Positions 4,558 through 16,293 of a stretch of 64,000 nt of DNA are shown in pieces. The position numbers and the translations under genes were made by a program. Origin of the DNA: Bdellovibrio sp. (lineage in GTDB: Bacteria; Bdellovibrionota; Bacteriovoracia; Bacteriovoracales; Bacteriovoracaceae); assembly GCA_016187935.1 (NCBI GenBank), contig JACPIU010000008.1, positions 292,086-356,085 of the forward strand. The letters run 5' to 3'. The notes below the pieces were generated by a model. It ran no database searches, was not told the DNA's origin, and worked only from the letters and a program-made list of their open reading frames with translations. The stretch's first letter is position 1. Every line of letters begins with the position of its first letter.

Positions 4558-5595
4558 TTAATAACATCTACAGCTAGGCGAAGTTGATCCATCATTGCAT
4601 AGGACTCTCTTATCTTCTTTACAGCAAGCTTGACTTTTTTTGGGGCCAGCGACACCGTTATGGTGACTACAACATCCTCTGATTGTCGCAGGCATCAACT
4701 GACTATCTATGGGGCAGGCTGAAGCATTAGAAAAATTATTGCTGCTCTGAACTGTTCGATTTGTTTGGACATCTTCGTTAAACCACGTTGAAAAATTATT
4801 CTCTGCCTCTATCCGTTTTTCTACCTCGTCAGGCAATTGTGAAAAAAAATTAATGCCGGTTATTGCCTCAACACTGTCAACCGAAACTGCATAGTCTTTA
4901 ATGTCATTGGAATTGTAGTTTTGGGGAATTATAAATCCTATTGCCTTTTGCTCTGAACCTTCCTCCAATAATACTTTAAAAAACTTTCGTGGAATTGTAA
5001 CCGCCGAATTTGGGAGCTTGCCTTCTGCCTCACTTAGGATTGGCCCAGTAACGACATAAACTTTTCCATATTTTTTTGTCCAACCTCTGACTTTCTCCTC
5101 CAAATTTTTCCATATACCACGATTTAATTTCGGACGCTGTGGAGTCATGTTACTCATTAAGAAAGAATCTGACATGGACTCTACAGACCATGCCATATCT
5201 ACGGCAGGTGCCAAATGCCCTTTATCAAATCCACTTCTTGCATAATCTTTTGGTAAAGCACTCCCTCCTTCAACATTATTGTCAGCATGAAAATTATTGC
5301 TCCTACTTGCCACTGTTGAATTCAATTTTTCCTTCGTTATAGAATAGCCCACCCAATTTGCGATCTTCTCGCTACTATTAAACGAAAGATAGTAGCCGTG
5401 ACGTACATAAAGTTTTTCATTTGCTTTTAATGCAGGAACTTCAAGCCCAAACTCTTTGACCTTTTTGCTTGGACTCGTTGATTCGATTTGAATATTCTGC
5501 GACGTTGTGACGGTTTGTGGGAATTGATGATCCTGTACAGTGGTGGAACAACCGTAAAAAAAGCTTGTGAGAAAAATTAGAAAAGATATTTTCAT
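4558..5595 (-). CDS. secreted DNA/RNA non-specific endonuclease (Endonuclease_NS family) lipoprotein
   Basis: Lipoprotein signal MKISFLIFLTSFFYGCS. Active-site-like FDKGHLAPA (Serratia nuclease DRGH motif). Eight Cys in the last 40 aa. Confidence 0.8.
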   Translation of the reverse strand: MKISFLIFLTSFFYGCSTTVQDHQFPQTVTTSQNIQIESTSPSKKVKEFGLEVPALKANEKLYVRHGYYLSFNSSEKIANWVGYSITKEKLNSTVASRSNNFHADNNVEGGSALPKDYARSGFDKGHLAPAVDMAWSVESMSDSFLMSNMTPQRPKLNRGIWKNLEEKVRGWTKKYGKVYVVTGPILSEAEGKLPNSAVTIPRKFFKVLLEEGSEQKAIGFIIPQNYNSNDIKDYAVSVDSVEAITGINFFSQLPDEVEKRIEAENNFSTWFNEDVQTNRTVQSSNNFSNASACPIDSQLMPATIRGCCSHHNGVAGPKKSQACCKEDKRVLCNDGSTSPSCRCY

Positions 5596-5616: not shown

Positions 5617-6033
5617 CTAGATAGAATTCGTTAACTCATGAATCTTTTCTTGAATGTTAGTAGTGCCTTCAGTATCCACAAAATCAATCTCGTTAGTTTC
5701 AGTTTTGTCACACATGGCGAGCTTTGCCGCTTTAGCATGGAAACAGATAGAAAAATGTGCTTTTCTTCCTAGAATGGCCCAATCTGGAGAATATTTTTTG
5801 ATAAAATCCATGTACTCCTTTTCAGAAGGGTCCAGATTCTTATTAAGTTCTTGCAAATAGATCGTCATCGAGATATTTGTCAGATCATTATTCATAACTT
5901 TTCTCGACAAATAACCTCTTAAACGTTTATTGGCTGCGGCCATGTCAGTTCTAATTTCCGTTATGTCTTGCTCACTTATTTTATGAGAAAGAGATGTGCA
6001 TGAGATTACAATAAGGATTAATAGATATTTCAT
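5617..6033 (-). CDS. small secreted/lipoprotein, hypothetical, co-oriented immediately upstream of the nuclease
   Basis: Signal peptide MKYLLILIVISCTS. Overlaps the end of the upstream gene. Confidence 0.45.
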   Translation of the reverse strand: MKYLLILIVISCTSLSHKISEQDITEIRTDMAAANKRLRGYLSRKVMNNDLTNISMTIYLQELNKNLDPSEKEYMDFIKKYSPDWAILGRKAHFSICFHAKAAKLAMCDKTETNEIDFVDTEGTTNIQEKIHELTNSI

Positions 6034-7010
6034 ACAAGTCCCTGCCAACAGACCACTGGTTGATCTAGATTATTACCATCTTGCGTCGATGAAATTGATC
6101 TTCCTGTATCCAGATTTATGGCGGGAATATCCTCACTTGTAAGCTTCCCTTCACCGTAGCAATAATCATATACTTTGAGTGCTATTGGCTTCAGCACTTT
6201 AAATAATGCGGGAAGACAGTCATCGAAAAAATTAATATCTTTATTTAAGAAATTTGTTTTTCGTCCAAATGCTTGATTATTTCTAAGCCAAATTGATTCA
6301 TCTTTTTTCTTCAACACATCTTTCGCATCATGAAAGAAATAGGTATCTAGACCTGGGAAGTTTGAGTAAAATTGGAAATGATTTCCCTCTGCCAGCGCAA
6401 ACATGCCATGCATATCATCTACCCAATCTTCAATTCGTTCTTTGTTCGTTTTGTGTCCATAGACAGAATTAATTGCTTCTGAAAACAGATTTGAGACATG
6501 AGAAAAATCTTTTTTAAGTGGGTCCATTATTTGATCGTGCAAGTTCGTCCAATTTAGATTTACGCTGGCCCCTGTCCCTTGTGAAAAATAATCGAGAAGT
6601 ATGACATCGAGTCGCATTTCAAGGGCCCGATGTTCAGAGGAGTGATCGTCGTAATTTCCGACCTTATCACGGATAAAAGGATGGATGATCCCATCAGCGA
6701 CCAGGTGACTTATGTATCCAAGAAAAAAGGCAAAACATTCGTCTTTTTTGTCACTATCCTGCATCGCTTTGATTTTTTGAACACCATAGAAGGGAACAAG
6801 ATTTGTACTCCTATAGTGTAGATCATCAGCTATTTTTTCTTCGCTATTTAGGAACCTTGGGATTTGTGAATATGGTAGGTCTGGGCCCAAGGCTCCAAGT
6901 TGAAAATATTTAAGTTTTTCATCGAGTAACAAACCTAAGCTGTGCTCACTAAGATTCGTTTTTTCGTTAAACAATTTGGCAAAGGTAATATGTGAGTATC
7001 CGCTTGGCAT
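6030..7010 (-). CDS. zinc-dependent phospholipase C-like family protein (tentative)
   Basis: LGALGPD and HLVADGIIHPF His/Asp motifs resemble the bacterial zinc PLC-like superfamily. 326 aa. Confidence 0.4.
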   Translation of the reverse strand: MPSGYSHITFAKLFNEKTNLSEHSLGLLLDEKLKYFQLGALGPDLPYSQIPRFLNSEEKIADDLHYRSTNLVPFYGVQKIKAMQDSDKKDECFAFFLGYISHLVADGIIHPFIRDKVGNYDDHSSEHRALEMRLDVILLDYFSQGTGASVNLNWTNLHDQIMDPLKKDFSHVSNLFSEAINSVYGHKTNKERIEDWVDDMHGMFALAEGNHFQFYSNFPGLDTYFFHDAKDVLKKKDESIWLRNNQAFGRKTNFLNKDINFFDDCLPALFKVLKPIALKVYDYCYGEGKLTSEDIPAINLDTGRSISSTQDGNNLDQPVVCWQGLV

Positions 7011-7229
7011 TGTACTTTCTCCTCTTTGCTAAAAGAATAATTCATGCTAGCATAATATGCGCAGAAGAGAAATGTATTCAACTGTATTCCAAGATGACGC
7101 TCCTTGGAATGCTACTTATAGAGCAATTGACTGCGCACTTTTTGCCCTGTCGAAATTATCAATATGACCACAATTAATTTTACCACTTTTCGAGCTACGG
7201 TAAAAAGTTCTTGAAAGATTTGAGGCTAT

Positions 7230-8942
7230 ATGACTAAAAAAATTAATTTATCAATTTATCTTTCCAAGCTAGGCATTGCCCCTAACGATTGCGTCGATGG
7301 GGAAGCTGTTGCAGACACACATGCCGCGAGGATTGAGCTTTCATTAAAAGATGCTCCAGCTTCGTTTGCATACATCGGAATTACTCCCGCAAAAGAGCCA
7401 AAATGGATGAACCTTGTTAAGTTGAACACGGATAAAAGCGGTAAAGACAAGCTAGCGGAGATGAATACGTCGACAGTTAGCATATCGTGCATGATTGTAA
7501 TTCATTTAAAAAGCAAAATGAGATCATTTATTTTTTGTTTTGGACATGGAAAGAAATTTCTAAAATATGAGTCAGTTGAGAAAAATTTTGGCAGAAATCT
7601 TGTTCTAAATACCGCTGATGAGTCAAAAATATCAACGATAAGGACCAAAAGCTTCGAAAGCCAGCCTCTTTTCAAAGAGCTTCAATCACTCCTAACAACA
7701 GATCTTTATGAATTTGGATTCAATTGCGATTATGAACTACTTCAAAAGGTTGTAGGCAGTGCTGAGGGAAAACTTCCAAATACATTTTTTGAAAAACATG
7801 GAAAGGGTCAAAAAGAGCTATTGTCATATAAATTTTCTGGATACGAAGCAGTGAATATAAATGTTGATATTGAACATCTTGGCTGGTCTAAGTTATGCAA
7901 CTGGTTACTTGAAAAGTATTCAGAGAGAACATATAAAAAACTAATACCCAACATAGATTTTTTTGACTTCATAAAGGAGGAGTCCATTATTAAGTCAAGA
8001 AATGACGAGTTAATAGCACTCATCAGAGCTAATCAACTCGACGATATAGCTCTATGCATTCCTGAAAAAATTGAGAATGATGATATTACGGGGTTTGAAA
8101 TTAAAGGGACAAAATATACAAAAGATAGCCAGCTCGAACGATTGATTCTGGATGATATTACAGAGGCACTGAGAGAAGTCGGAAAACTTGGGGCCATTGA
8201 CATTGACGACTTAAAAAGATGGAAGGTGAATGCTTTTGCAGGCGATGATTTCAGGGGCACTTGGAGCATTTTCAGATGTTTAACTATTGAGCTACTTAAG
8301 CCAGACGGGAGGTATGTTCTTTCAGATGGCGAATGGTACCGCTTAGATAAAAATCATTTCACCAAAACAGTGAAAGATTTAAATACAAGAGTTCAGATTA
8401 ACCCATTTCCGTCTTTCTCCATCAGCGTACACAAAGATGAAGCAGGTTATAATAAAGCGGTTAGTGCTCAGTTCGGGCACTACCTGTTTGATAGAAAGTT
8501 GCAAGCAAGTTCCTTAGGGCAAGAAATTGAGCCATGCGATGTACTCTGCTATTTAAAGGATTTTTTACATATTAAAAGATCAAAATCTTCTCAGTCACTT
8601 AGCCACCTTTTTAATCAAGGAGTTGTTTCGAACGAATTAATTGTTAGGGGTGATACAATTTTTACAACAAATATTGTTAGTTCTGTTGACAAGAAAGATC
8701 AAAAAAACATCAGTGAGATTATTGAAAAGAAAAGGCACGAGGTTTCTTTTGCCATCATCGTTGAGAATCGAAAACAGATTGATCTCTCAAAAAAAATTGA
8801 AAACCTTCCAGCTTTTAGTATTATTTCACTTTCAAAAACTGTTGAAATAATAGAGAGAGGTGGGAAAAAAGTAAAAATTTACTTGATTCCAACTGGCACT
8901 GCTCCTAAGCAGAAAGTGAAGATTATAAAGAAAAAGGCTTAA
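7230..8942 (+). CDS. large orphan protein (570 aa), possibly a TIGR04141/DUF6119-like sporadically distributed family
   Basis: Intact 570 aa ORF with no catalytic motif recognised. Converges on the defense operon with a 16 bp gap. Family assignment is from memory only. Confidence 0.5.
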   Translation: MTKKINLSIYLSKLGIAPNDCVDGEAVADTHAARIELSLKDAPASFAYIGITPAKEPKWMNLVKLNTDKSGKDKLAEMNTSTVSISCMIVIHLKSKMRSFIFCFGHGKKFLKYESVEKNFGRNLVLNTADESKISTIRTKSFESQPLFKELQSLLTTDLYEFGFNCDYELLQKVVGSAEGKLPNTFFEKHGKGQKELLSYKFSGYEAVNINVDIEHLGWSKLCNWLLEKYSERTYKKLIPNIDFFDFIKEESIIKSRNDELIALIRANQLDDIALCIPEKIENDDITGFEIKGTKYTKDSQLERLILDDITEALREVGKLGAIDIDDLKRWKVNAFAGDDFRGTWSIFRCLTIELLKPDGRYVLSDGEWYRLDKNHFTKTVKDLNTRVQINPFPSFSISVHKDEAGYNKAVSAQFGHYLFDRKLQASSLGQEIEPCDVLCYLKDFLHIKRSKSSQSLSHLFNQGVVSNELIVRGDTIFTTNIVSSVDKKDQKNISEIIEKKRHEVSFAIIVENRKQIDLSKKIENLPAFSIISLSKTVEIIERGGKKVKIYLIPTGTAPKQKVKIIKKKA

Positions 8943-8958
8943 CTTGATTGTAGTTTTC

Positions 8959-9639
8959 CTAGACTTTTACTTTTAAAAAGCAATGAGCCCCCAATTCCCA
9001 TAAAAATTTATAATTATTTCCGAGGATTATTGGTGGCCCATAATTATTTGTCTTGTAGTCTAATTTTTTGCATGCAGTATATTCTGCTCCATGCCTAAAA
9101 TCAAAATCTCCAGTATCATTCGAATAAGTTTTCTGATCAACATAATGTCGATGATCCGTGCCGACTATTAAAAAACCTAAATCAGAGATTCGATTACTCA
9201 CGTATGTCTCAAGATTTTTCAAATCGACAAATACATCATAGCGATTGTTTGGCTCGCGCTGGTTTATCTTTTTAAAGAATTTCAGTTCAATCGCGCAGAA
9301 GGCAGGCTTTTCATTTTTTTCTGTATTTTCAAATTTTAGAAAGATATCAATATTAGCTTTATTTGAATTACTCTTCAGAAAGGATTGTCCGACAAGTGAT
9401 ACAGGGGCTTCAAGTTCAATTGAAAAATGATCATTGGCCGAGTACTCCGCCAATTCGCCAAGTATTTTAAAAATGCTTGCTAAGTGAAGCTGTAATGAAG
9501 CCTCATTATTTATTGTCGTCATGCCCGATTCAAGTCTCTTGTGTAAGATCATCAATCCATCATCGACAATTTTCTCTAACCTATTGTTATAACTTTCTAC
9601 TTCGATTGGAGAGCAAGGATGAGCACTTCTCAGCATCAT
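8959..9639 (-). CDS. small protein with a possible PD-(D/E)xK nuclease-like core
   Basis: NIDIFLKF ...(about 20 aa)... CAIELKF fits a D...ExK arrangement. Start overlaps the stop of the upstream gene (translational coupling). Confidence 0.35.
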   Translation of the reverse strand: MMLRSAHPCSPIEVESYNNRLEKIVDDGLMILHKRLESGMTTINNEASLQLHLASIFKILGELAEYSANDHFSIELEAPVSLVGQSFLKSNSNKANIDIFLKFENTEKNEKPAFCAIELKFFKKINQREPNNRYDVFVDLKNLETYVSNRISDLGFLIVGTDHRHYVDQKTYSNDTGDFDFRHGAEYTACKKLDYKTNNYGPPIILGNNYKFLWELGAHCFLKVKV

Positions 9640-9640
9640 T

Positions 9641-10597
9641 TTAAACCACCGAACTTAAAAGAGATAAGTCTTGAGTATTCAGCAAATGCTTAATCTTAGG
9701 CCTTAATTTTTCCACAAGCTCCTCAAGGTTTACATAGTATTCAATGTTCCATTGCGCCAGATGAAATTCCGCTTTAGAACCTACAGGGCAAGTTAGAATC
9801 AAATCTGTTCCAATAGCACGGGCAAAACCAAACTCATAATACACATTAGGCCGATTGCCTCCTAAGTCGCAAATAACTAGAAGTGACTTCTCTAGCCACT
9901 TTTCAACTGATGGAGAAATTCTGTCTTTATGGACCAAGGAAGGATTATCAATTTTATCAATGCTTGCCCTACAGTCAGTGGCCAAATCAGAAGCTTTTTT
10001 TATTGCAAGAAATTTTTCATGAGCCATCAATACTTCATCATGATCAGTGTTCCTATTCGGGAAAGCCATCATTACAGCAATATCAGGGATATCATATATC
10101 CTTCTATCTTGAACACTTTTCATAACTATAAAATTGGTCTTTAGATTGTATTCATCTATTTTCCTATCTATTAGACTTTCCAAGGGATCACTAAAGCTGC
10201 AAAAGCTTGATGCGCCAATCGCTACATATCTCTCATTTCGTCCTGTTTTTATAGCGATGTTGTCAATAACCGAGTTGTTCCATTGAACATAGCGCGCTGA
10301 TAATTTTTGCTTCAAATTAATTTTTGTCAAATTCCAAAATAAATTACTATCTCTCCGTCTGGACTCCTTTAGCAGCAAATCTAAATCTTCCAAAGTTAAT
10401 TCAAAAATTTTTCTGAACATTTTCCCAACGATCTCTCCTACTAATTTAGCGTATGAACTTTCTCTAATAATATGTGTCTCTAACTCGTTAATAGCGACAT
10501 CCAGCTCTGCCCTCTTTTGCTCTGTAATTTCAGCTTCTCTATTAAAAAAAATTCTGTCAATTAACTCATTTGTTGCTTTTGAAAAAAAGTCATTCAT
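9641..10597 (-). CDS. protein with a C-terminal NDT/LOG/TIR-like Rossmann domain (candidate effector or sensor)
   Basis: DIAVMMAF strand, then LLVICDLGGNRPNVYYEFGFARAIGTDLIL. This matches the nucleoside 2-deoxyribosyltransferase/TIR-like hallmark (conserved Glu in a YE.G.A..G context). Start overlaps the cyclase stop. Confidence 0.45.
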   Translation of the reverse strand: MNDFFSKATNELIDRIFFNREAEITEQKRAELDVAINELETHIIRESSYAKLVGEIVGKMFRKIFELTLEDLDLLLKESRRRDSNLFWNLTKINLKQKLSARYVQWNNSVIDNIAIKTGRNERYVAIGASSFCSFSDPLESLIDRKIDEYNLKTNFIVMKSVQDRRIYDIPDIAVMMAFPNRNTDHDEVLMAHEKFLAIKKASDLATDCRASIDKIDNPSLVHKDRISPSVEKWLEKSLLVICDLGGNRPNVYYEFGFARAIGTDLILTCPVGSKAEFHLAQWNIEYYVNLEELVEKLRPKIKHLLNTQDLSLLSSVV

Positions 10598-10598
10598 A

Positions 10599-11471
10599 TT
10601 AAGCCTTTTGCAGTAATCTTCTTACTGGATTTAAAACATCGCCATTGAAATTATGACACTTCAATCTGTAGCAGGTAATAAAAGAAACATAGGATTTAAG
10701 CCAGTTGTACTTTGAAAAATAGTTCAGGTCTTTATAAAGGCCAAGAATTATATTTTCGGCAATTTTTTTTACAAGATTTGTGCCGTTAACATTTGCTAAA
10801 CTGCCCACATAATCTACAAAAAGATGTGTATCTCTATCAAAAGGCATATTCATTTCTTCAAGCATTCTCCAGTCAAAAAGGAGCGACGAATAATCGTTCA
10901 TTGATCTTGGTTCAGAAAAATATTCATAGAGCCGACCTCCATTTACCGCCTCAATGAAATCTTGAAGCATCGCGAATTCGCAATACTCTGCAATTTTAGG
11001 ATCAACAATTACTCGTGGATACTTGGCAATTTCACTTTCAAGTCGGTATGCACTAACGAGTGCCGGGCCGGCAATTACATTTTTCGCTTTGTCTATAAAG
11101 ACTTTTCCTTTTGAAACTCCTCCCCTTGTCCAAAAATTATTTAATGCAAGTTGAGCTTGCATCCTTGAAATACTAACAAGAAATTTTTTCAGAGATTTTA
11201 TTTTATTACACTGATTATTTGCGCCATTGAATTCAGCAGCGAGCAGAGGTGCTGTGATGATTATAGAATCACTAATTACAAAAAAATTTATGTCGTCTTC
11301 TCCATCAACTAAGTCCAAGACATCTAGGAATCCCAGGACTGTAGAAAAATAAAAACTCAAATCATCCTCGGATTTTTCTCCAAAAACTTTTTCTTTAAAA
11401 CCTAGAACATCAATAAAGGCAACATAGCATTCCTCATAATCAACATTCACCCTATAGTTTTTTTCTCTCAC
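10599..11471 (-). CDS. class III nucleotidyl cyclase homology domain protein (Pycsar PycC-like or novel cyclase)
   Basis: YVAFIDVLGFKE (metal Asp1, like FADIVGFT). FFVISDSIII (Asp2, like KTIGDAYM). RGGVSKGKVF...AGPALVSAYRLESE (like GDTVNTAARMES). Confidence 0.55.
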   Translation of the reverse strand: MREKNYRVNVDYEECYVAFIDVLGFKEKVFGEKSEDDLSFYFSTVLGFLDVLDLVDGEDDINFFVISDSIIITAPLLAAEFNGANNQCNKIKSLKKFLVSISRMQAQLALNNFWTRGGVSKGKVFIDKAKNVIAGPALVSAYRLESEIAKYPRVIVDPKIAEYCEFAMLQDFIEAVNGGRLYEYFSEPRSMNDYSSLLFDWRMLEEMNMPFDRDTHLFVDYVGSLANVNGTNLVKKIAENIILGLYKDLNYFSKYNWLKSYVSFITCYRLKCHNFNGDVLNPVRRLLQKA

Positions 11472-11572
11472 CTAAATCTCCAAGTCAAAATTAATCGGCC
11501 CAATTCAGTAAGACAAATTTTGCGAGATTTAAGTAGCTCGCAAGTGAAAAGAGGTAAAAAAGATACATGATC

Positions 11573-13387
11573 TTAAAGCTTTCCAAACTGTTTAAAGATT
11601 TCACGAATCTCCTGGAATATGTCTGGAGTCACAGTTGGTGCAGCTTTGATATATAAGCGCTTGAGTGTGGCAACATCAATTGGCGTCTTCGAAGCAAATT
11701 TTTTTAATATCGGCTTGCCAGGAATCTGTTTTTGCCATTCATCGGAATCATAAATTATGAAATTCGAAAGTCTTGCAAAGTCGGTACGTACAAGTTCTCG
11801 GACTATATTAGTATCGAGAGTACTACTAATTCTTTTTACTTCTGAATCCCGTTGTACATCAAAAAGAGACTCAAGCTTTGCTACATCAACACAGTGACAT
11901 TCCTGAGGCATCAAATCTGCATTGCCTGTGGCATTACGTAGTCGATGTGCGACGTGTAATGCAACGGCATAGGATAGAAAATCTTTAGCAATCGTCAGGA
12001 GTTCTGCTCTGATTTTGACCGGATCACACAACCACGATCCTTTCGGTTCATCTAGTTGCTCGAACACACGCGCGATCACGTTTTCGTTCAAAAAGTAATT
12101 TTCAACATGATAACGGGGAAGAATTTTAAGGCGCCCCCCTGTTTTGTCACCGGACGTACTGGTCATGCAGTCACCATCACAGAGCATGAAGAAGTCTACC
12201 CCCCATACTGTTTTGTTAAGGACTGTTTCAAATGCCTTCACAAACGAATGAATACTTTCTTTGCCTCCTGTTGGCACAAGCACGAATTCAGGGTGCTCTG
12301 ATCCAACAATGCTGCCATACGTTTGTTTATCTAGGCTCGATGAAATTCCCTCGATGAGCACTATTTTCTTCCCAAGTGAGATCACACCTATGGATTGACC
12401 GATCAAATGTAGCACTTTCGATGCTTCGTCATCTTCTCTAAGCTGTACTGCCTGGTTTGGCCTTCCTGTGTTTGGAGGAGCCACAAAAACTACCGATTGA
12501 TCAAGTGAGGCAGTGATAATGTCAGGGGAATGCGTAGAGAGAATAAACTGATTCCTCTCACCAATATCACGCAATGTACGTAAAAGTCGGTATGACAACT
12601 CTGGGTGAAGATGAAGCTCCGGCTCGTCGAAAATAATAATACAGTCCTTCGGATCACGGAGTAAAAAATCGAACACAATAGAAACTACCTCGCGTTCGCC
12701 GGAACTCAACGAGGTTAGTGGGAGAACAGTACCATTGGTCTTAAATGAGACTGTCTGCGATCGTTCATTCAGCTTTTCGAGTGTCTTACCAGGCAGTAGT
12801 TTTGTAAATGCATCTTCAAATTTTTCTAGTGGATATTGAAAATCGAGAGGCATTGACTTTTCGCCTGACTCTTTCAAGAGAAGTGCGCGTTTAGATATTT
12901 CTTCTTTCTGGCTTCTAACTTTTCTATACAACGAATGAATGGTGTCCTGAAACCGGCCTCTCAAAGGTTGATATACTGTATTCCAGCCTATGTTCTCCTG
13001 TAGGGGATCAGCCGACTCCCAATTAAAGTTGTATGGCTGTACTTGTTCGAGTTGGCGAGCCGAGTCAAAATTAAGCACACTGCTTCTAAGCTGGCCCCGC
13101 TTCTGTTGGCGTTGCAAGAAAGCACGGAGTTTCGCTGCTTCTGCCGGAATCGAGGTTTGCAACGTATGCTGTCCCCAGGCTGCCACCTCTTCCTGATTCG
13201 TAGCACGTACTTTTGCAATAATACTCGGAAGGCCACCAGGATTTTGAAACAGGTTTAATAACTGCACCATGAGGGTCGTCTTACCTACACCATTAGGACC
13301 AGCAAGAACAACCGTCTCAAAAAGTCCCTCGACGGAAAATGCTTCAATAGGTTTGGCACCTTTGACTGAGTAGGATTCAAGCTTCAT
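11573..13387 (-). CDS. OLD-family ATPase-TOPRIM nuclease (class 1 OLD-like)
   Basis: Walker A GPNGVGKTT. LSSGEREVV signature. IIIFDEPELHLHPEL Walker B. STHSPDII H-loop. C-terminal IVLIEGISSSLD ... CDGD TOPRIM/DUF4435-like Glu and DxD. 604 aa, matching P2 Old size. Confidence 0.7.
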   Translation of the reverse strand: MKLESYSVKGAKPIEAFSVEGLFETVVLAGPNGVGKTTLMVQLLNLFQNPGGLPSIIAKVRATNQEEVAAWGQHTLQTSIPAEAAKLRAFLQRQQKRGQLRSSVLNFDSARQLEQVQPYNFNWESADPLQENIGWNTVYQPLRGRFQDTIHSLYRKVRSQKEEISKRALLLKESGEKSMPLDFQYPLEKFEDAFTKLLPGKTLEKLNERSQTVSFKTNGTVLPLTSLSSGEREVVSIVFDFLLRDPKDCIIIFDEPELHLHPELSYRLLRTLRDIGERNQFILSTHSPDIITASLDQSVVFVAPPNTGRPNQAVQLREDDEASKVLHLIGQSIGVISLGKKIVLIEGISSSLDKQTYGSIVGSEHPEFVLVPTGGKESIHSFVKAFETVLNKTVWGVDFFMLCDGDCMTSTSGDKTGGRLKILPRYHVENYFLNENVIARVFEQLDEPKGSWLCDPVKIRAELLTIAKDFLSYAVALHVAHRLRNATGNADLMPQECHCVDVAKLESLFDVQRDSEVKRISSTLDTNIVRELVRTDFARLSNFIIYDSDEWQKQIPGKPILKKFASKTPIDVATLKRLYIKAAPTVTPDIFQEIREIFKQFGKL

Positions 13388-14473: not shown

Positions 14474-14764
14474 CTAGGCCACATCTCGAATATTCAACTC
14501 CACCGAAAGACTTAAGGCAGAGGCCAGACGAATTAATCGTTCAATGGAAACACTTTGAAGACTGCCGTTCACAATTCCAGACACCACCGTCCTTGAGAGT
14601 CCAGAGGCTTCTGCAAGTTCGGCACAGGTTAGCTCTCTCACCTCTGTCTCCTTAATGATCCGTTTTTTGAGTGTCGTCTTCATCTTCGAGATCAGTACCC
14701 TATCCGATGTGACCCCCAGGTCCTTCCCAAATTCCTCAATGGTCTTATAGCGTTTCATTTTCAT
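14474..14764 (-). CDS. higA: HigA-family XRE HTH antitoxin
   Basis: LTCAELAEASGLSRTVVSGIVNG helix-turn-helix. Overlaps the toxin stop. Confidence 0.75.
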   Translation of the reverse strand: MKMKRYKTIEEFGKDLGVTSDRVLISKMKTTLKKRIIKETEVRELTCAELAEASGLSRTVVSGIVNGSLQSVSIERLIRLASALSLSVELNIRDVA

Positions 14765-15078
14765 TCCAACCTCTTTATTCTCTGAATAGACACCTCAATG
14801 TCTTTCTTGGATGTCTGATTTGTTTTCTTCTGGAAACCGTGGACAAGATAAATGGCGCCCCCTTTTTTTATAAAGTAGATGACCCGATAAACGCCAGACC
14901 GCTCCCTAAAGCGAAGTTCAAACACACCTGGGCCCATACCTTCCATCTTTTTTGAGAAAGGCATGCTCAAAGTTATGCCGGCCTTAAGATCGGCGATAGC
15001 ATCCACCAATTCCTCTTTGACCTTCAAAGGAAACTCACTTATTTCCCTTGCGCACTGAGGCAATACAACCACATCCAC
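14761..15078 (-). CDS. higB: HigB/Gp49-like RelE/ParE-superfamily toxin
   Basis: GPGVFELRF...YRVIYF...IYLVHGFQKKT is the Gp49/HigB hallmark. GTG start preceded by AAGGAG. Confidence 0.75.
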   Translation of the reverse strand: MDVVVLPQCAREISEFPLKVKEELVDAIADLKAGITLSMPFSKKMEGMGPGVFELRFRERSGVYRVIYFIKKGGAIYLVHGFQKKTNQTSKKDIEVSIQRIKRLE

Positions 15079-15726: not shown

Positions 15727-16293
15727 ATGTTCCCACAAATGAAAAAGCCAACGCTCTATATTTTCTCCGGCCTTCCCGCCTCTGGAAAATCAACCATAGC
15801 GCAGGAATTGGCCAAGCATACTCATGCAACTTTTATCAGAATAGATACTCTCGAGCAGGGACTTCGTGACCTTTGCAATTATAATCAGTTAGAGGGAGAG
15901 GGTTATCGTCTTTCTTATCGTGTTGTTGCAGACAATCTAAAACTTGGGAACGATGTCATCGCCGATTCTTGCAACCCATGGGAACTAACGAGGCGAGAGT
16001 GGAATGAGGTTGCAACTTCTGTAGGTGCAAATTTTGTGAATATCGAAGTTCTCTGTTCAGACCCAAAAGAACACAAGCATCGGGTAGAGAACCGTCAGGT
16101 GGGAATTGCAACATTGAAACTTCCCACCTGGGAGGAAGTTCTTAATCGTGACTATCAACAATGGTCTATGCCTCGTATTGTTTTAGATACGGCAGGGAAA
16201 GATCTTAAATTAAGTCTTAAGGAATTGTTGTTGGCCCTACCCTTGAATCTTTCTCCTTCTTTATTAGCCGGAACAACCATCTTAAGCGAGTAA
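15727..16293 (+). CDS. P-loop kinase, AAA_33/zeta-toxin-like NTPase
   Basis: Walker A GLPASGKST. 188 aa. Confidence 0.6.
   Translation: MFPQMKKPTLYIFSGLPASGKSTIAQELAKHTHATFIRIDTLEQGLRDLCNYNQLEGEGYRLSYRVVADNLKLGNDVIADSCNPWELTRREWNEVATSVGANFVNIEVLCSDPKEHKHRVENRQVGIATLKLPTWEEVLNRDYQQWSMPRIVLDTAGKDLKLSLKELLLALPLNLSPSLLAGTTILSE

What the first reader, a model, noticed from the sequence alone, without database searches (positions are those of the whole stretch)
10599..11471. Cyclase homology domain motifs read directly from the sequence
D21 in CYVAFIDVLGF and D68 in FFVISDSIII are 47 residues apart (canonical CHDs: about 44). This is followed by RGGVSKGKVF and AGPALVSAYRLESE. The Asn of the canonical N..R pair is replaced by Ser. 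That may indicate altered nucleotide specificity, since pyrimidine cyclases diverge here. It may also mean the protein is a degenerate or regulatory palm domain.
Basis: seen in the sequence. Interest (0 to 1): 0.6.

Follow-up and report, generated by a model that had tools for sequence, protein, structure and literature searches.

The report
Unannotated cyclase-fold enzyme in defence island
The motifs belong to a real 290-residue gene from a large, unnamed protein family that has the fold and metal-binding core of adenylate/guanylate cyclases but lacks half of their catalytic residues, and that usually sits alone in mobile, defence-rich parts of bacterial genomes, which makes it a candidate new single-gene defence enzyme rather than an ordinary cyclase.

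Summary
The ORF lies on the minus strand (10599-11471, 290 aa) and carries all quoted motifs.

- **Sequence level:** It is not a Pfam PF00211 member. Pfam, NCBIfam and PADLOC give nothing.
- **Family:** There are 7,436 clusters at E<=1e-10. Across 188 members, D21, S67-D68, R116-G117, E145, K254 and W257 are essentially invariant.
- **Missing residues:** R143 is not conserved, and the base-specifying residues are hydrophobic.
- **C-terminus:** A family-specific helical domain replaces the C-terminal strands of canonical cyclase domains.
- **Context:** Close relatives have no conserved partner; 20 of 32 loci have no tightly linked neighbour. They lie among restriction, Abi and mobile-element genes. 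The downstream TIR-like gene occurs elsewhere without a palm gene, so a Pycsar-like pairing is not supported. A distant subfamily occupies the gop position of gop-beta-cII cassettes.

Best reading: a self-contained Mg-NTP enzyme acting as a single-gene defence or toxin module. Its activity is untested.

The parts
10599..11471 (-). Complete ORF: 290 aa, GTG start, TAA stop at 10599-10601. It is identical to the hypothetical protein HYV97_03830 of a Bdellovibrio sp. MAG.
11478..11481 (-). GGAG ribosome-binding site, 6 nt upstream of the GTG start.
   Evidence: read from the sequence
10998..11471 (-). N-terminal palm domain (residues 1-158) with the class III cyclase (CHD) fold. Modelled elements: beta1 12-22, alpha1 34-55, hairpin 62-75, alpha 86-110, beta4 115-127, beta5 132-134, alpha4 136-148, beta 154-156.
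11409..11411 (-). D21 codon, the first metal-binding Asp (FIDVLGF). It aligns with D256 of Rv1625c.
   Evidence: 187/188 conserved; alignments
11265..11273 (-). S67-D68-S69 at the beta2-beta3 hairpin. D68 is the second metal-binding Asp and aligns with D300 of Rv1625c.
   Evidence: S67 and D68 188/188 conserved; alignments
11121..11126 (-). R116-G117 on beta4, aligned with R344-V345 of Rv1625c. R116 is the presumed triphosphate-binding Arg.
   Evidence: 188/188 conserved; hhalign (low significance)
11037..11069 (-). G135-E145 (GPALVSAYRLE), counterpart of the canonical GDAVNVASRME helix. V139 takes the place of the Asn. R143 takes the place of the Arg but is not conserved in the family.
   Evidence: register derived; position frequencies (pos 139 Ile 135 and Val 21 of 188; pos 143 Leu 99 and Arg 11 of 188)
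10602..10997 (-). Family-specific C-terminal helical domain (residues 159-290). It replaces the C-terminal beta strands of canonical cyclase domains. It carries the near-invariant K254 (10710-10712), W257 (10701-10703) and Y261 (10689-10691).
   Evidence: DSSP of the model; conservation. No structural match beyond the palm was reported.

Best explanation
Shown: the ORF is a real gene of a large protein family that Pfam, NCBIfam and PADLOC do not cover. Its N-terminal ~155 residues have the class III nucleotidyl-cyclase palm fold. They keep the two Mg-binding aspartates (D21, D68) and the arginine on beta4 (R116). They have lost the canonical Asn/Arg transition-state pair and the base-specifying residues, which in ordinary cyclases are supplied in trans by the second subunit of the dimer. 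A family-specific helical C-terminal domain with an invariant Lys and Trp (K254, W257) follows. Close relatives have no conserved partner gene.

Inferred: the protein binds Mg-NTP at the D21/D68/R116 site and catalyses a two-metal nucleotidyl transfer (cyclisation or another PPi-releasing reaction). The C-terminal domain would complete the active site, play the role of the missing dimer partner, and/or gate activity. The gene would then act as a self-contained, horizontally mobile single-gene defence or toxin module (abortive-infection type: NTP consumption or a toxic nucleotide product). It would not be the signal generator of a Pycsar-like two-gene system.
For: - Gene and family: 238 homologues. 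The profile finds 13,237 50%-identity clusters at E<=1e-3 and 7,436 at E<=1e-10, nearly all 230-300 aa.
- Catalytic core under strong constraint: D21 187/188, S67/D68/R116/G117 188/188, E145 187/188, K254 185/188, W257 184/188, at pairwise identities down to ~25%.
- Register: D21, D68 and R116 align with D256, D300 and R344 of Rv1625c.
- Autonomy: in 32 non-redundant close-family loci, 20 have no same-strand neighbour >=80 aa within 40 nt, and the tight neighbours of the other 12 are unrelated to each other.
- Context: neighbours include Type I HsdM/HsdR, methylases, Mrr, GmrSD, AbiGi, AIPR, KAP NTPase, HipA, RES/HEPN, Shedu SduA_C, Lamassu LmuB, nSTAND, reverse transcriptases, resolvases and integrases. 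In the window the gene lies between a fused PARIS AriAB and a TIR-like gene, in the lowest-GC stretch.
- Effector-slot evidence: in 14 Bacteroidota loci a distant subfamily sits, overlapping by 11 nt, upstream of a Beta_protein gene (PF14350, 2.9e-15) and a convergent cII gene (PADLOC cll, 4.7e-17). This is the layout of P4 gop-beta-cII, where gop is the toxic component (PMC9122126).
Against: - No activity, toxicity or phage-resistance data exist for any member, so the defence role rests on context only. That context was not scored against a genomic background, and several flanks are housekeeping genes.
- Loss of the Asn/Arg pair would cripple a canonical cyclase mechanism.
- Sequence-level links to cyclases are all below significance.
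- In this window the gene is tightly packed with two downstream genes (1-nt spacers), so co-function here cannot be excluded.
- P4 Gop is not homologous to the palm protein, so the 'gop slot' argument is positional only.
Confidence: 0.5

Rival explanations
1. Non-catalytic ATP/NTP-binding palm (pseudo-cyclase). The domain keeps only what is needed to bind Mg-NTP and uses nucleotide binding as a switch or sensor for the C-terminal domain.
Against: The C-terminal domain is small (~130 aa, helical) and matches no recognisable effector fold or family, so it is unclear what a switch would control in a stand-alone protein. The invariant K254 and W257 fit substrate binding equally well.
Confidence: 0.2
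2. Signal-generating cyclase of a Pycsar-like operon. The palm protein makes a cyclic nucleotide that activates the TIR-like protein encoded 1 nt downstream (9641-10597), possibly together with the 226-aa protein (8959-9639).
Against: None of 84 other loci with a palm gene has a homologue of the 318- or 226-aa proteins nearby. The five homologues of the 318-aa protein whose contigs were examined (of 17 found) had no palm gene annotated upstream or adjacent; for one of them (L090) the gene lies 240 nt from the contig end, so its upstream side could not be seen. Those genes lie next to integrases or other Abi genes. No cNMP-binding domain is detected and there is no PycC model hit.
Confidence: 0.12
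3. Ordinary housekeeping cAMP/cGMP cyclase of the host's signalling network.
For: The fold is closest to adenylate and guanylate cyclases.
Against: There is no PF00211 hit. Canonical catalytic and specificity residues are missing. There is no sensor or regulatory domain. The family is patchily distributed across Bdellovibrionota, Proteobacteria, Campylobacterota, Bacteroidota, Bacillota (including B. cereus plasmids) and Spirochaetia. It sits in a low-GC island.
Confidence: 0.05
4. Template-independent nucleotidyltransferase or polymerase-like palm (as in Cas10/mCpol, GGDEF or Thg1) that makes linear or cyclic oligonucleotides rather than a cNMP.
Confidence: 0.1

Closest known systems
Class III adenylate/guanylate cyclase catalytic domain (CHD, Pfam PF00211), e.g. 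M. tuberculosis Rv1625c, mammalian AC C1/C2
   Different: No significant sequence match. The Asn/Arg transition-state pair is absent from the family (V139; position 143 mostly Leu). The positions of the base-specifying Lys/Asp are hydrophobic (F64, V132). The beta4-beta5 hairpin is 5 residues shorter. The C-terminal strands are replaced by a helical domain with its own invariant K254/W257. There are no sensor domains.
Pycsar pyrimidine cyclases (PycC; PDB 7r65, 8jsf, 8jsz)
   Different: No PycC HMM hit. The structural match is weaker than to AC/GC. There is no conserved downstream effector and no cNMP-binding domain.
P4 gop-beta-cII abortive-infection/toxin-antitoxin-like system
   Same: A distant subfamily of this palm family (14 Bacteroidota loci, e.g. 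L071) occupies the gop position, upstream of and overlapping beta, with a convergent cII.
   Different: P4 Gop is a 133-aa, mostly hydrophobic protein with no detectable homology (hhalign probability 0.1%). The window itself has no beta or cII gene.
Class III cyclase-like ATP-binding protein of P. aeruginosa (PDB 6yii)
   Different: It is part of a much larger regulator (473-residue chain). No sequence similarity was detected. Its residue pattern was not compared here.

Membership tests
Class III nucleotidyl cyclase (PF00211 / CHD) | Significant match to the PF00211 profile | tested here: not met
   No Pfam hit at E<=1 for the window protein. Only 3 of 47 relatives hit, best E 0.021. The family profile against PDB cyclases gives E ~0.7. 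hhalign against Rv1625c gives probability 27%, and against 26 mycobacterial CHDs 0.8%.
Class III nucleotidyl cyclase (PF00211 / CHD) | CHD palm fold | tested here: met
Class III nucleotidyl cyclase (PF00211 / CHD) | Two metal-binding Asp (beta1 and beta2-beta3 hairpin), about 44 residues apart | tested here: met
   D21 and D68 are 47 apart and are 187/188 and 188/188 conserved. They align with D256 and D300 of Rv1625c. Residue-level 3D superposition could not be inspected.
Class III nucleotidyl cyclase (PF00211 / CHD) | Transition-state Asn and Arg on helix alpha4 (N372/R376 in Rv1625c) | tested here: not met
   The Asn position is V139 (family: Ile 135, Val 21 of 188). The Arg position is R143 in this protein, but Leu in 99 and Arg in only 11 of 188. 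The register comes from the G/A/E anchors, not from a significant alignment.
Class III nucleotidyl cyclase (PF00211 / CHD) | Base-specifying residues (K296/D365 in Rv1625c; Glu/Cys in guanylate cyclases) | tested here: not met
   The corresponding positions are F64 (family Ile/Leu/Tyr/Phe) and V132. This uses the same spacing-based register.
Class III nucleotidyl cyclase (PF00211 / CHD) | Head-to-tail dimer with active sites at the interface | not testable with these tools
   Only a monomer could be modelled, and no coordinates or multimer prediction were available.
Class III nucleotidyl cyclase (PF00211 / CHD) | NTP to 3',5'-cNMP + PPi activity | not testable with these tools
   Needs biochemistry.
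Pycsar (PycC cyclase + cNMP-activated effector) | Match to PycC models | tested here: not met
   No PADLOC hit at E<=1.
Pycsar (PycC cyclase + cNMP-activated effector) | Conserved adjacent effector with a cyclic-nucleotide-binding domain | tested here: not met
   The downstream 318-aa protein has no cNMP-binding domain. The pairing is not conserved in 84 other palm loci, and no palm gene was seen next to any of the five homologues of the 318-aa protein whose contigs were examined; for one of these (L090) the upstream side runs off the contig end.
GGDEF diguanylate cyclase | GG[DE]EF hairpin motif and closest structural match | tested here: not met
gop-beta-cII system | Presence of beta (PF14350) and cII genes next to the gene | tested here: not met
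   Neither is in the window neighbourhood. They are present only next to a distant subfamily (L071 and 13 other loci).

The most novel reading that the evidence does not exclude
This family is a new class of stand-alone immune or toxin nucleotide enzymes: a monomeric cyclase-fold palm whose own C-terminal domain replaces the second subunit of the cyclase dimer (K254/W257 completing the site). It would make a nucleotide product, or deplete NTPs, on phage infection. It would also be interchangeable with the membrane toxin Gop as the killing module of beta-cII cassettes.
Probability: 0.3. Interest if true: 0.75.

Novelty: new variant of a known kind. Interest (0 to 1): 0.55.

Why it matters
If the inference holds, several thousand 'hypothetical proteins' spread across many bacterial phyla would gain a fold, an active site and a testable role. 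Nucleotide-based bacterial immunity is so far known from CD-NTases, Pycsar cyclases, Cas10/mCpol, TIR and DAC enzymes. This family would add a self-contained cyclase-fold enzyme that needs no separate effector. The family also gives a handle on the unexplained gop-beta-cII system, because it shows that the gop position can be filled by an enzyme instead of a small membrane protein. If the protein is inactive instead, it would be a widespread pseudo-cyclase nucleotide sensor, which is also informative.

Tried and rejected
- **Family libraries.** Pfam, NCBIfam and PADLOC scans of the protein gave nothing. PHROGs gave only unknown-function families (phrog_23933, 8e-22).
- **Second half of the domain.** A profile of residues 86-162 found no PDB hit at E<=10, so the Asn/Arg register rests on spacing and secondary structure.
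- **Profile of true cyclases.** My last large protein search, with the Rv1625c domain, returned only >=69%-identical mycobacterial sequences. The resulting profile-profile comparison was no better than a single sequence.
- **Structure libraries.** The afdb50 library was unavailable. BFVD showed only canonical viral cyclase domains.
- **Phage and plasmid records.** tblastn against INPHARED phages found no match for the window protein or P0018. Plasmids gave only Bacillus 'hypothetical proteins'.
- **P4 Gop homology.** Tested and rejected.
- **Upstream ATPase association.** AriAB/OLD-like ATPases lie upstream in 4 loci, but they share only the generic ABC-ATPase core (25-33% over ~140 aa). I treat this as co-location, not a system.
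- **Defence enrichment.** PADLOC and Pfam scans of 98 neighbours report only per-family counts, with no total and no background.
- **Regulatory signals.** Promoter/terminator, tRNA and Rfam scans were uninformative.
- **Literature.** Searches found no description of this family.

Full report
**1. The observation**

The interval 10599-11471 holds one ORF on the minus strand (290 aa, GTG start, TAA stop). The plus strand of the same interval is closed by many stops. A GGAG lies 6 nt upstream of the GTG. All quoted peptides are present at the stated residue numbers: D21 in CYVAFIDVLGF, D68 in FFVISDSIII, RGGVSKGKVF from R116, and AGPALVSAYRLESE containing G135-E145.

The protein is identical to a 'hypothetical protein' of a Bdellovibrio sp. 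MAG. It has 238 detectable homologues, none with a name or a Pfam domain. The motifs are therefore not chance strings in a spurious ORF.

**2. Is it a cyclase homology domain?**

By sequence profiles, no.
- Pfam, NCBIfam and PADLOC give nothing at E<=1.
- Only 3 of 47 relatives touch PF00211, best E 0.021.
- A family profile (A1) against all PDB sequences puts six mycobacterial adenylate cyclase entries among its eight hits, but at E ~0.7-2.6.

By structure, yes.
- The AlphaFold2 model built on A1 is confident (pLDDT 88, pTM 0.88).
- Foldseek agrees: its top 50 are all class III cyclases, E from 2e-5.
- The match covers ~150-170 residues, that is, the N-terminal domain only.

**3. Active-site register**

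I verified the Rv1625c catalytic-domain sequence against PDB 4p2x (100% over 181 residues). Its numbering is fragment position + 244. This reproduces what I recall as the published catalytic residues D256, K296, D300, D365, N372 and R376. Their roles and numbers are my own knowledge of the class III cyclase literature; the sequence itself was checked here.

HMMER and hhalign alignments, though sub-significant, consistently pair:
- D21 with D256 and D68 with D300;
- R116 with R344, when the alignment extends that far.

From R116 onward the spacing matches. R to G is +6 in both proteins. After a beta4-beta5 hairpin that is 5 residues shorter, G135 matches the G of 'WGD'. A141, R143, L144 and E145 then fall on A, R376, M and E378 of GDAVNVASRME.

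In this register:
- the base-specifying K296 and D365 correspond to F64 and V132.

A profile of this second half alone finds nothing in PDB. This part of the register therefore rests on spacing plus the model's secondary structure.

**4. Family conservation**

I aligned 188 non-identical members, combining database homologues with genes from 80 genome loci.

| Position | Conservation (of 188) |
|---|---|
| D21 | 187 |
| G24, F25 | 187 each |
| S67, D68, R116, G117 | 188 each |
| G122 | 184 |
| G135 | 179 |
| E145 | 187 |
| P152 | 186 |
| R153 | 177 |
| K254 | 185 |
| W257 | 184 |
| 139 (Asn equivalent) | Ile 135, Val 21 |
| 143 (Arg equivalent) | Leu 99, Arg 11 |

The family has kept the metal- and phosphate-binding half of a cyclase site. 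These residues come from one subunit of the canonical dimer. It has lost the half that canonical cyclases receive in trans from the partner subunit. It has also gained an invariant Lys and Trp on a helix of a family-specific C-terminal domain. In the model everything after residue ~157 is helical.

Strict invariance at identities down to ~25% argues against a decayed domain. It is compatible with catalysis, or with Mg-NTP binding alone.

**5. Size and spread of the family**

The A1 profile finds 13,237 50%-identity clusters at E<=1e-3, 7,436 at E<=1e-10 and 325 at E<=1e-30. Almost all are 230-300 aa. Members occur in Bdellovibrionota, Gamma- and Betaproteobacteria, Campylobacterota, Bacteroidota, Bacillota (including B. 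cereus megaplasmids) and Spirochaetia. A PHROG of unknown function matches at 8e-22. tblastn finds nothing in deposited phage genomes.

**6. Genomic context in the window**

All of the following genes are on the minus strand.
- **604-aa fused PARIS AriA-AriB** (11573-13387; PADLOC AriAB 1e-51, AAA_15/AAA_21 plus DUF4435). It is followed by a 101-nt gap.
- **The palm gene** (10599-11471), followed by 1 nt.
- **A 318-aa protein** (9641-10597) whose C-terminus matches a PADLOC 'Effector / TIR' model (6.7e-7), followed by 1 nt.
- **A 226-aa protein** (8959-9639) without family hits.

A DUF6119/TIGR04141 gene converges on them (7230-8942, + strand). The 6-12 kb stretch has the lowest GC of the window, 0.35-0.37 against 0.39-0.50 elsewhere. 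This is a typical defence island.

**7. Is palm plus TIR-like a Pycsar-like system?**

I tested conservation in both directions.
- Among 84 other loci with a palm gene, no neighbour within three genes is homologous to the 318- or 226-aa proteins.
- The 318-aa family is rare, with 17 homologues. I examined five contigs. In none was a palm gene annotated upstream or adjacent.
- In four of them the upstream gene was AbiTii, SLFN_AlbA_2, FMN_bind_2 or a rhodanese. In the fifth (L090) the gene starts 240 nt from the contig end, so its upstream side could not be seen.
- An integrase is usually nearby, and the small downstream genes are not homologous to one another.
- No cNMP-binding domain is detectable.

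The tight packing in the window most likely reflects co-transcribed but independent modules. I keep the Pycsar-like reading as a low-probability rival.

**8. Partners of the palm family**

In 32 non-redundant close-family loci (E<1e-50), 20 have no same-strand neighbour >=80 aa within 40 nt. The tight neighbours of the other 12 are unrelated to each other: a DpnII-like nuclease, RES/HEPN, HsdM, an HsdR fragment, an OLD-like ATPase and unknowns.

The two nearest large genes on each side (98 proteins) include:
- Type I methylase and HsdR C-terminus, a C5-methylase, Mrr, GmrSD, AbiGi, AIPR, KAP NTPase, HipA and AAA_15/21 ATPases;
- resolvases, rve integrases and a terminase;
- housekeeping genes as well.

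Annotated contigs add Lamassu LmuB, PLD, Shedu SduA_C, nSTAND and RT/HD-CE genes. I could not score this against a background, so the defence association is qualitative.

AAA_15-type ATPases lie upstream in four loci, including the window. They share only the generic ABC core.

**9. Two distant subfamilies do have fixed partners**

- **Subfamily A.** Fourteen Bacteroidota loci (e.g. L071). The palm gene (287 aa, with all core residues present) overlaps by 11 nt a 369-aa Beta_protein (PF14350, 2.9e-15). A convergent 246-aa cII homologue follows (PADLOC cll, 4.7e-17). This is the architecture of P4 gop-beta-cII.
- That system protects against lambda and P1, and its gop product is toxic without beta (PMC9122126). 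It is triggered to kill by a phage accessory gene (bioRxiv 10.1101/2023.04.06.535777).
- P4 Gop itself is a 133-aa, mostly hydrophobic protein with no similarity to the palm family. The palm enzyme therefore replaces Gop in the toxin/effector slot.
- **Subfamily B.** Eight proteobacterial loci (e.g. L046). A ParA/AAA_31 ATPase overlaps the start of a 232-aa palm gene.

Both patterns fit a protein whose activity is harmful and needs a controller. They fit less well with a mere signal generator.

**10. Mechanism**

Shown:
- cyclase fold;
- an invariant Asp-Asp-Arg core;
- loss of the trans-acting residues;
- a new C-terminal domain with an invariant Lys and Trp;
- autonomy of the gene;
- mobile and defence-rich surroundings;
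- occupancy of the gop slot in a subfamily.

Inferred:
- Mg-NTP binds at D21/D68/R116.
- The C-terminal domain completes or gates the site.
- Two-metal nucleotidyl transfer (cyclisation or another PPi-releasing reaction) consumes NTPs or yields a toxic or signalling nucleotide.
- The outcome is growth arrest of infected cells.

I put this at about 0.5. The main rival (0.2) is a non-catalytic nucleotide-binding switch. The retained and lost residues fit it equally well, and 6yii is a structural precedent by its title.

**11. Novelty and verdict**

The fold is known. The family is not covered by Pfam, NCBIfam or PADLOC, and I found no paper describing it.

It is best described as a new variant of the class III cyclase palm. 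It is not a member of PF00211 or of Pycsar, because defining features were tested and not met. The finding is worth experimental follow-up, but every functional statement remains inference.

Noticed in passing
window 11573-13387 (-): 604-aa protein with an ABC-type ATPase (AAA_15/AAA_21) fused to a weak DUF4435 match. Its best PADLOC hit is the fused AriAB model (1e-51). This is a single-polypeptide PARIS-type system directly upstream of the palm gene.
   Followed up: partly
window 9641-10597 (-): 318-aa protein whose C-terminal ~90 residues match a PADLOC 'Effector/TIR' model (6.7e-7) and phrog_3634 (8e-12). The N-terminal 210 residues match nothing. The family is rare (17 homologues). In the contigs examined it usually sits next to integrases, and no palm gene was seen beside it. 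No PDB sequence match.
   Followed up: partly
window 8959-9639 (-): 226-aa protein with no family hit except a weak DUF7424 match (E 0.014). The sequence IDIFLKF...CAIELKFFKK looks like a PD-(D/E)xK nuclease motif; this is my reading and was not tested. It starts 1 nt after the TIR-like gene.
   Followed up: no
window 7230-8942 (+): 570-aa DUF6119 / TIGR04141 'sporadically distributed protein' (3e-97) converging on the minus-strand gene block.
   Followed up: no
window 14474-15078 (-): Overlapping pair: Gp49/HigB-like toxin (105 aa, PF05973, 2.6e-23) and HTH_37/HTH_3 antitoxin (96 aa). This is a toxin-antitoxin module at the edge of the island.
   Followed up: no
window 15727-16293 (+): 188-aa AAA_33 / zeta-toxin-like P-loop kinase.
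   Followed up: no
window 4558-5595 (-) and 6030-7010 (-): A DNA/RNA non-specific endonuclease (PF01223, 3.6e-55) and a zinc-dependent phospholipase C (5.9e-20) flank the island on the low-coordinate side.
   Followed up: no
window 6001-12000: Lowest GC of the window (0.35-0.37 against 0.39-0.50 elsewhere), consistent with horizontally acquired DNA. No tRNA gene and no Rfam match occur anywhere in the 64 kb.
   Followed up: partly
window 11520-11543 (-): A 7-bp inverted repeat (TTGCGAG, 10 nt, CTCGCAA) followed by a T-rich stretch, in the 101-nt gap between the AriAB stop and the palm start. It may be a weak terminator or an operator. The terminator scan did not flag it because the loop exceeds 8 nt.
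   Followed up: no
L071 5965-8655 (and 13 other Bacteroidota loci: L052, L053, L063, L066-L068, L070, L072, L075, L077, L082, L085, L087): A conserved cassette: palm protein (287 aa), overlapping Beta_protein (PF14350), then a convergent cII-like gene. This is the layout of P4 gop-beta-cII with the palm enzyme in place of Gop, often just downstream of a Type I HsdR gene.
   Followed up: partly
L046 4898-6663 (and L039, L042, L048, L049, L054, L060, L064): A proteobacterial subfamily of shorter palm proteins (~232 aa) always preceded by an overlapping ParA/AAA_31 ATPase of ~355 aa. This is a possible two-gene system.
   Followed up: partly
L074 5956-6581: In Pedobacter aquatilis the palm gene is split into 115-aa and 93-aa ORFs that overlap by 4 nt. 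It is apparently a frameshifted pseudogene.
   Followed up: no
L095 1456-3288: The second-closest homologue (P0003, 36% identity) lies 160 nt downstream of a DUF4062 protein and upstream of a ParE toxin pair. The DUF4062 link was not explored.
   Followed up: no
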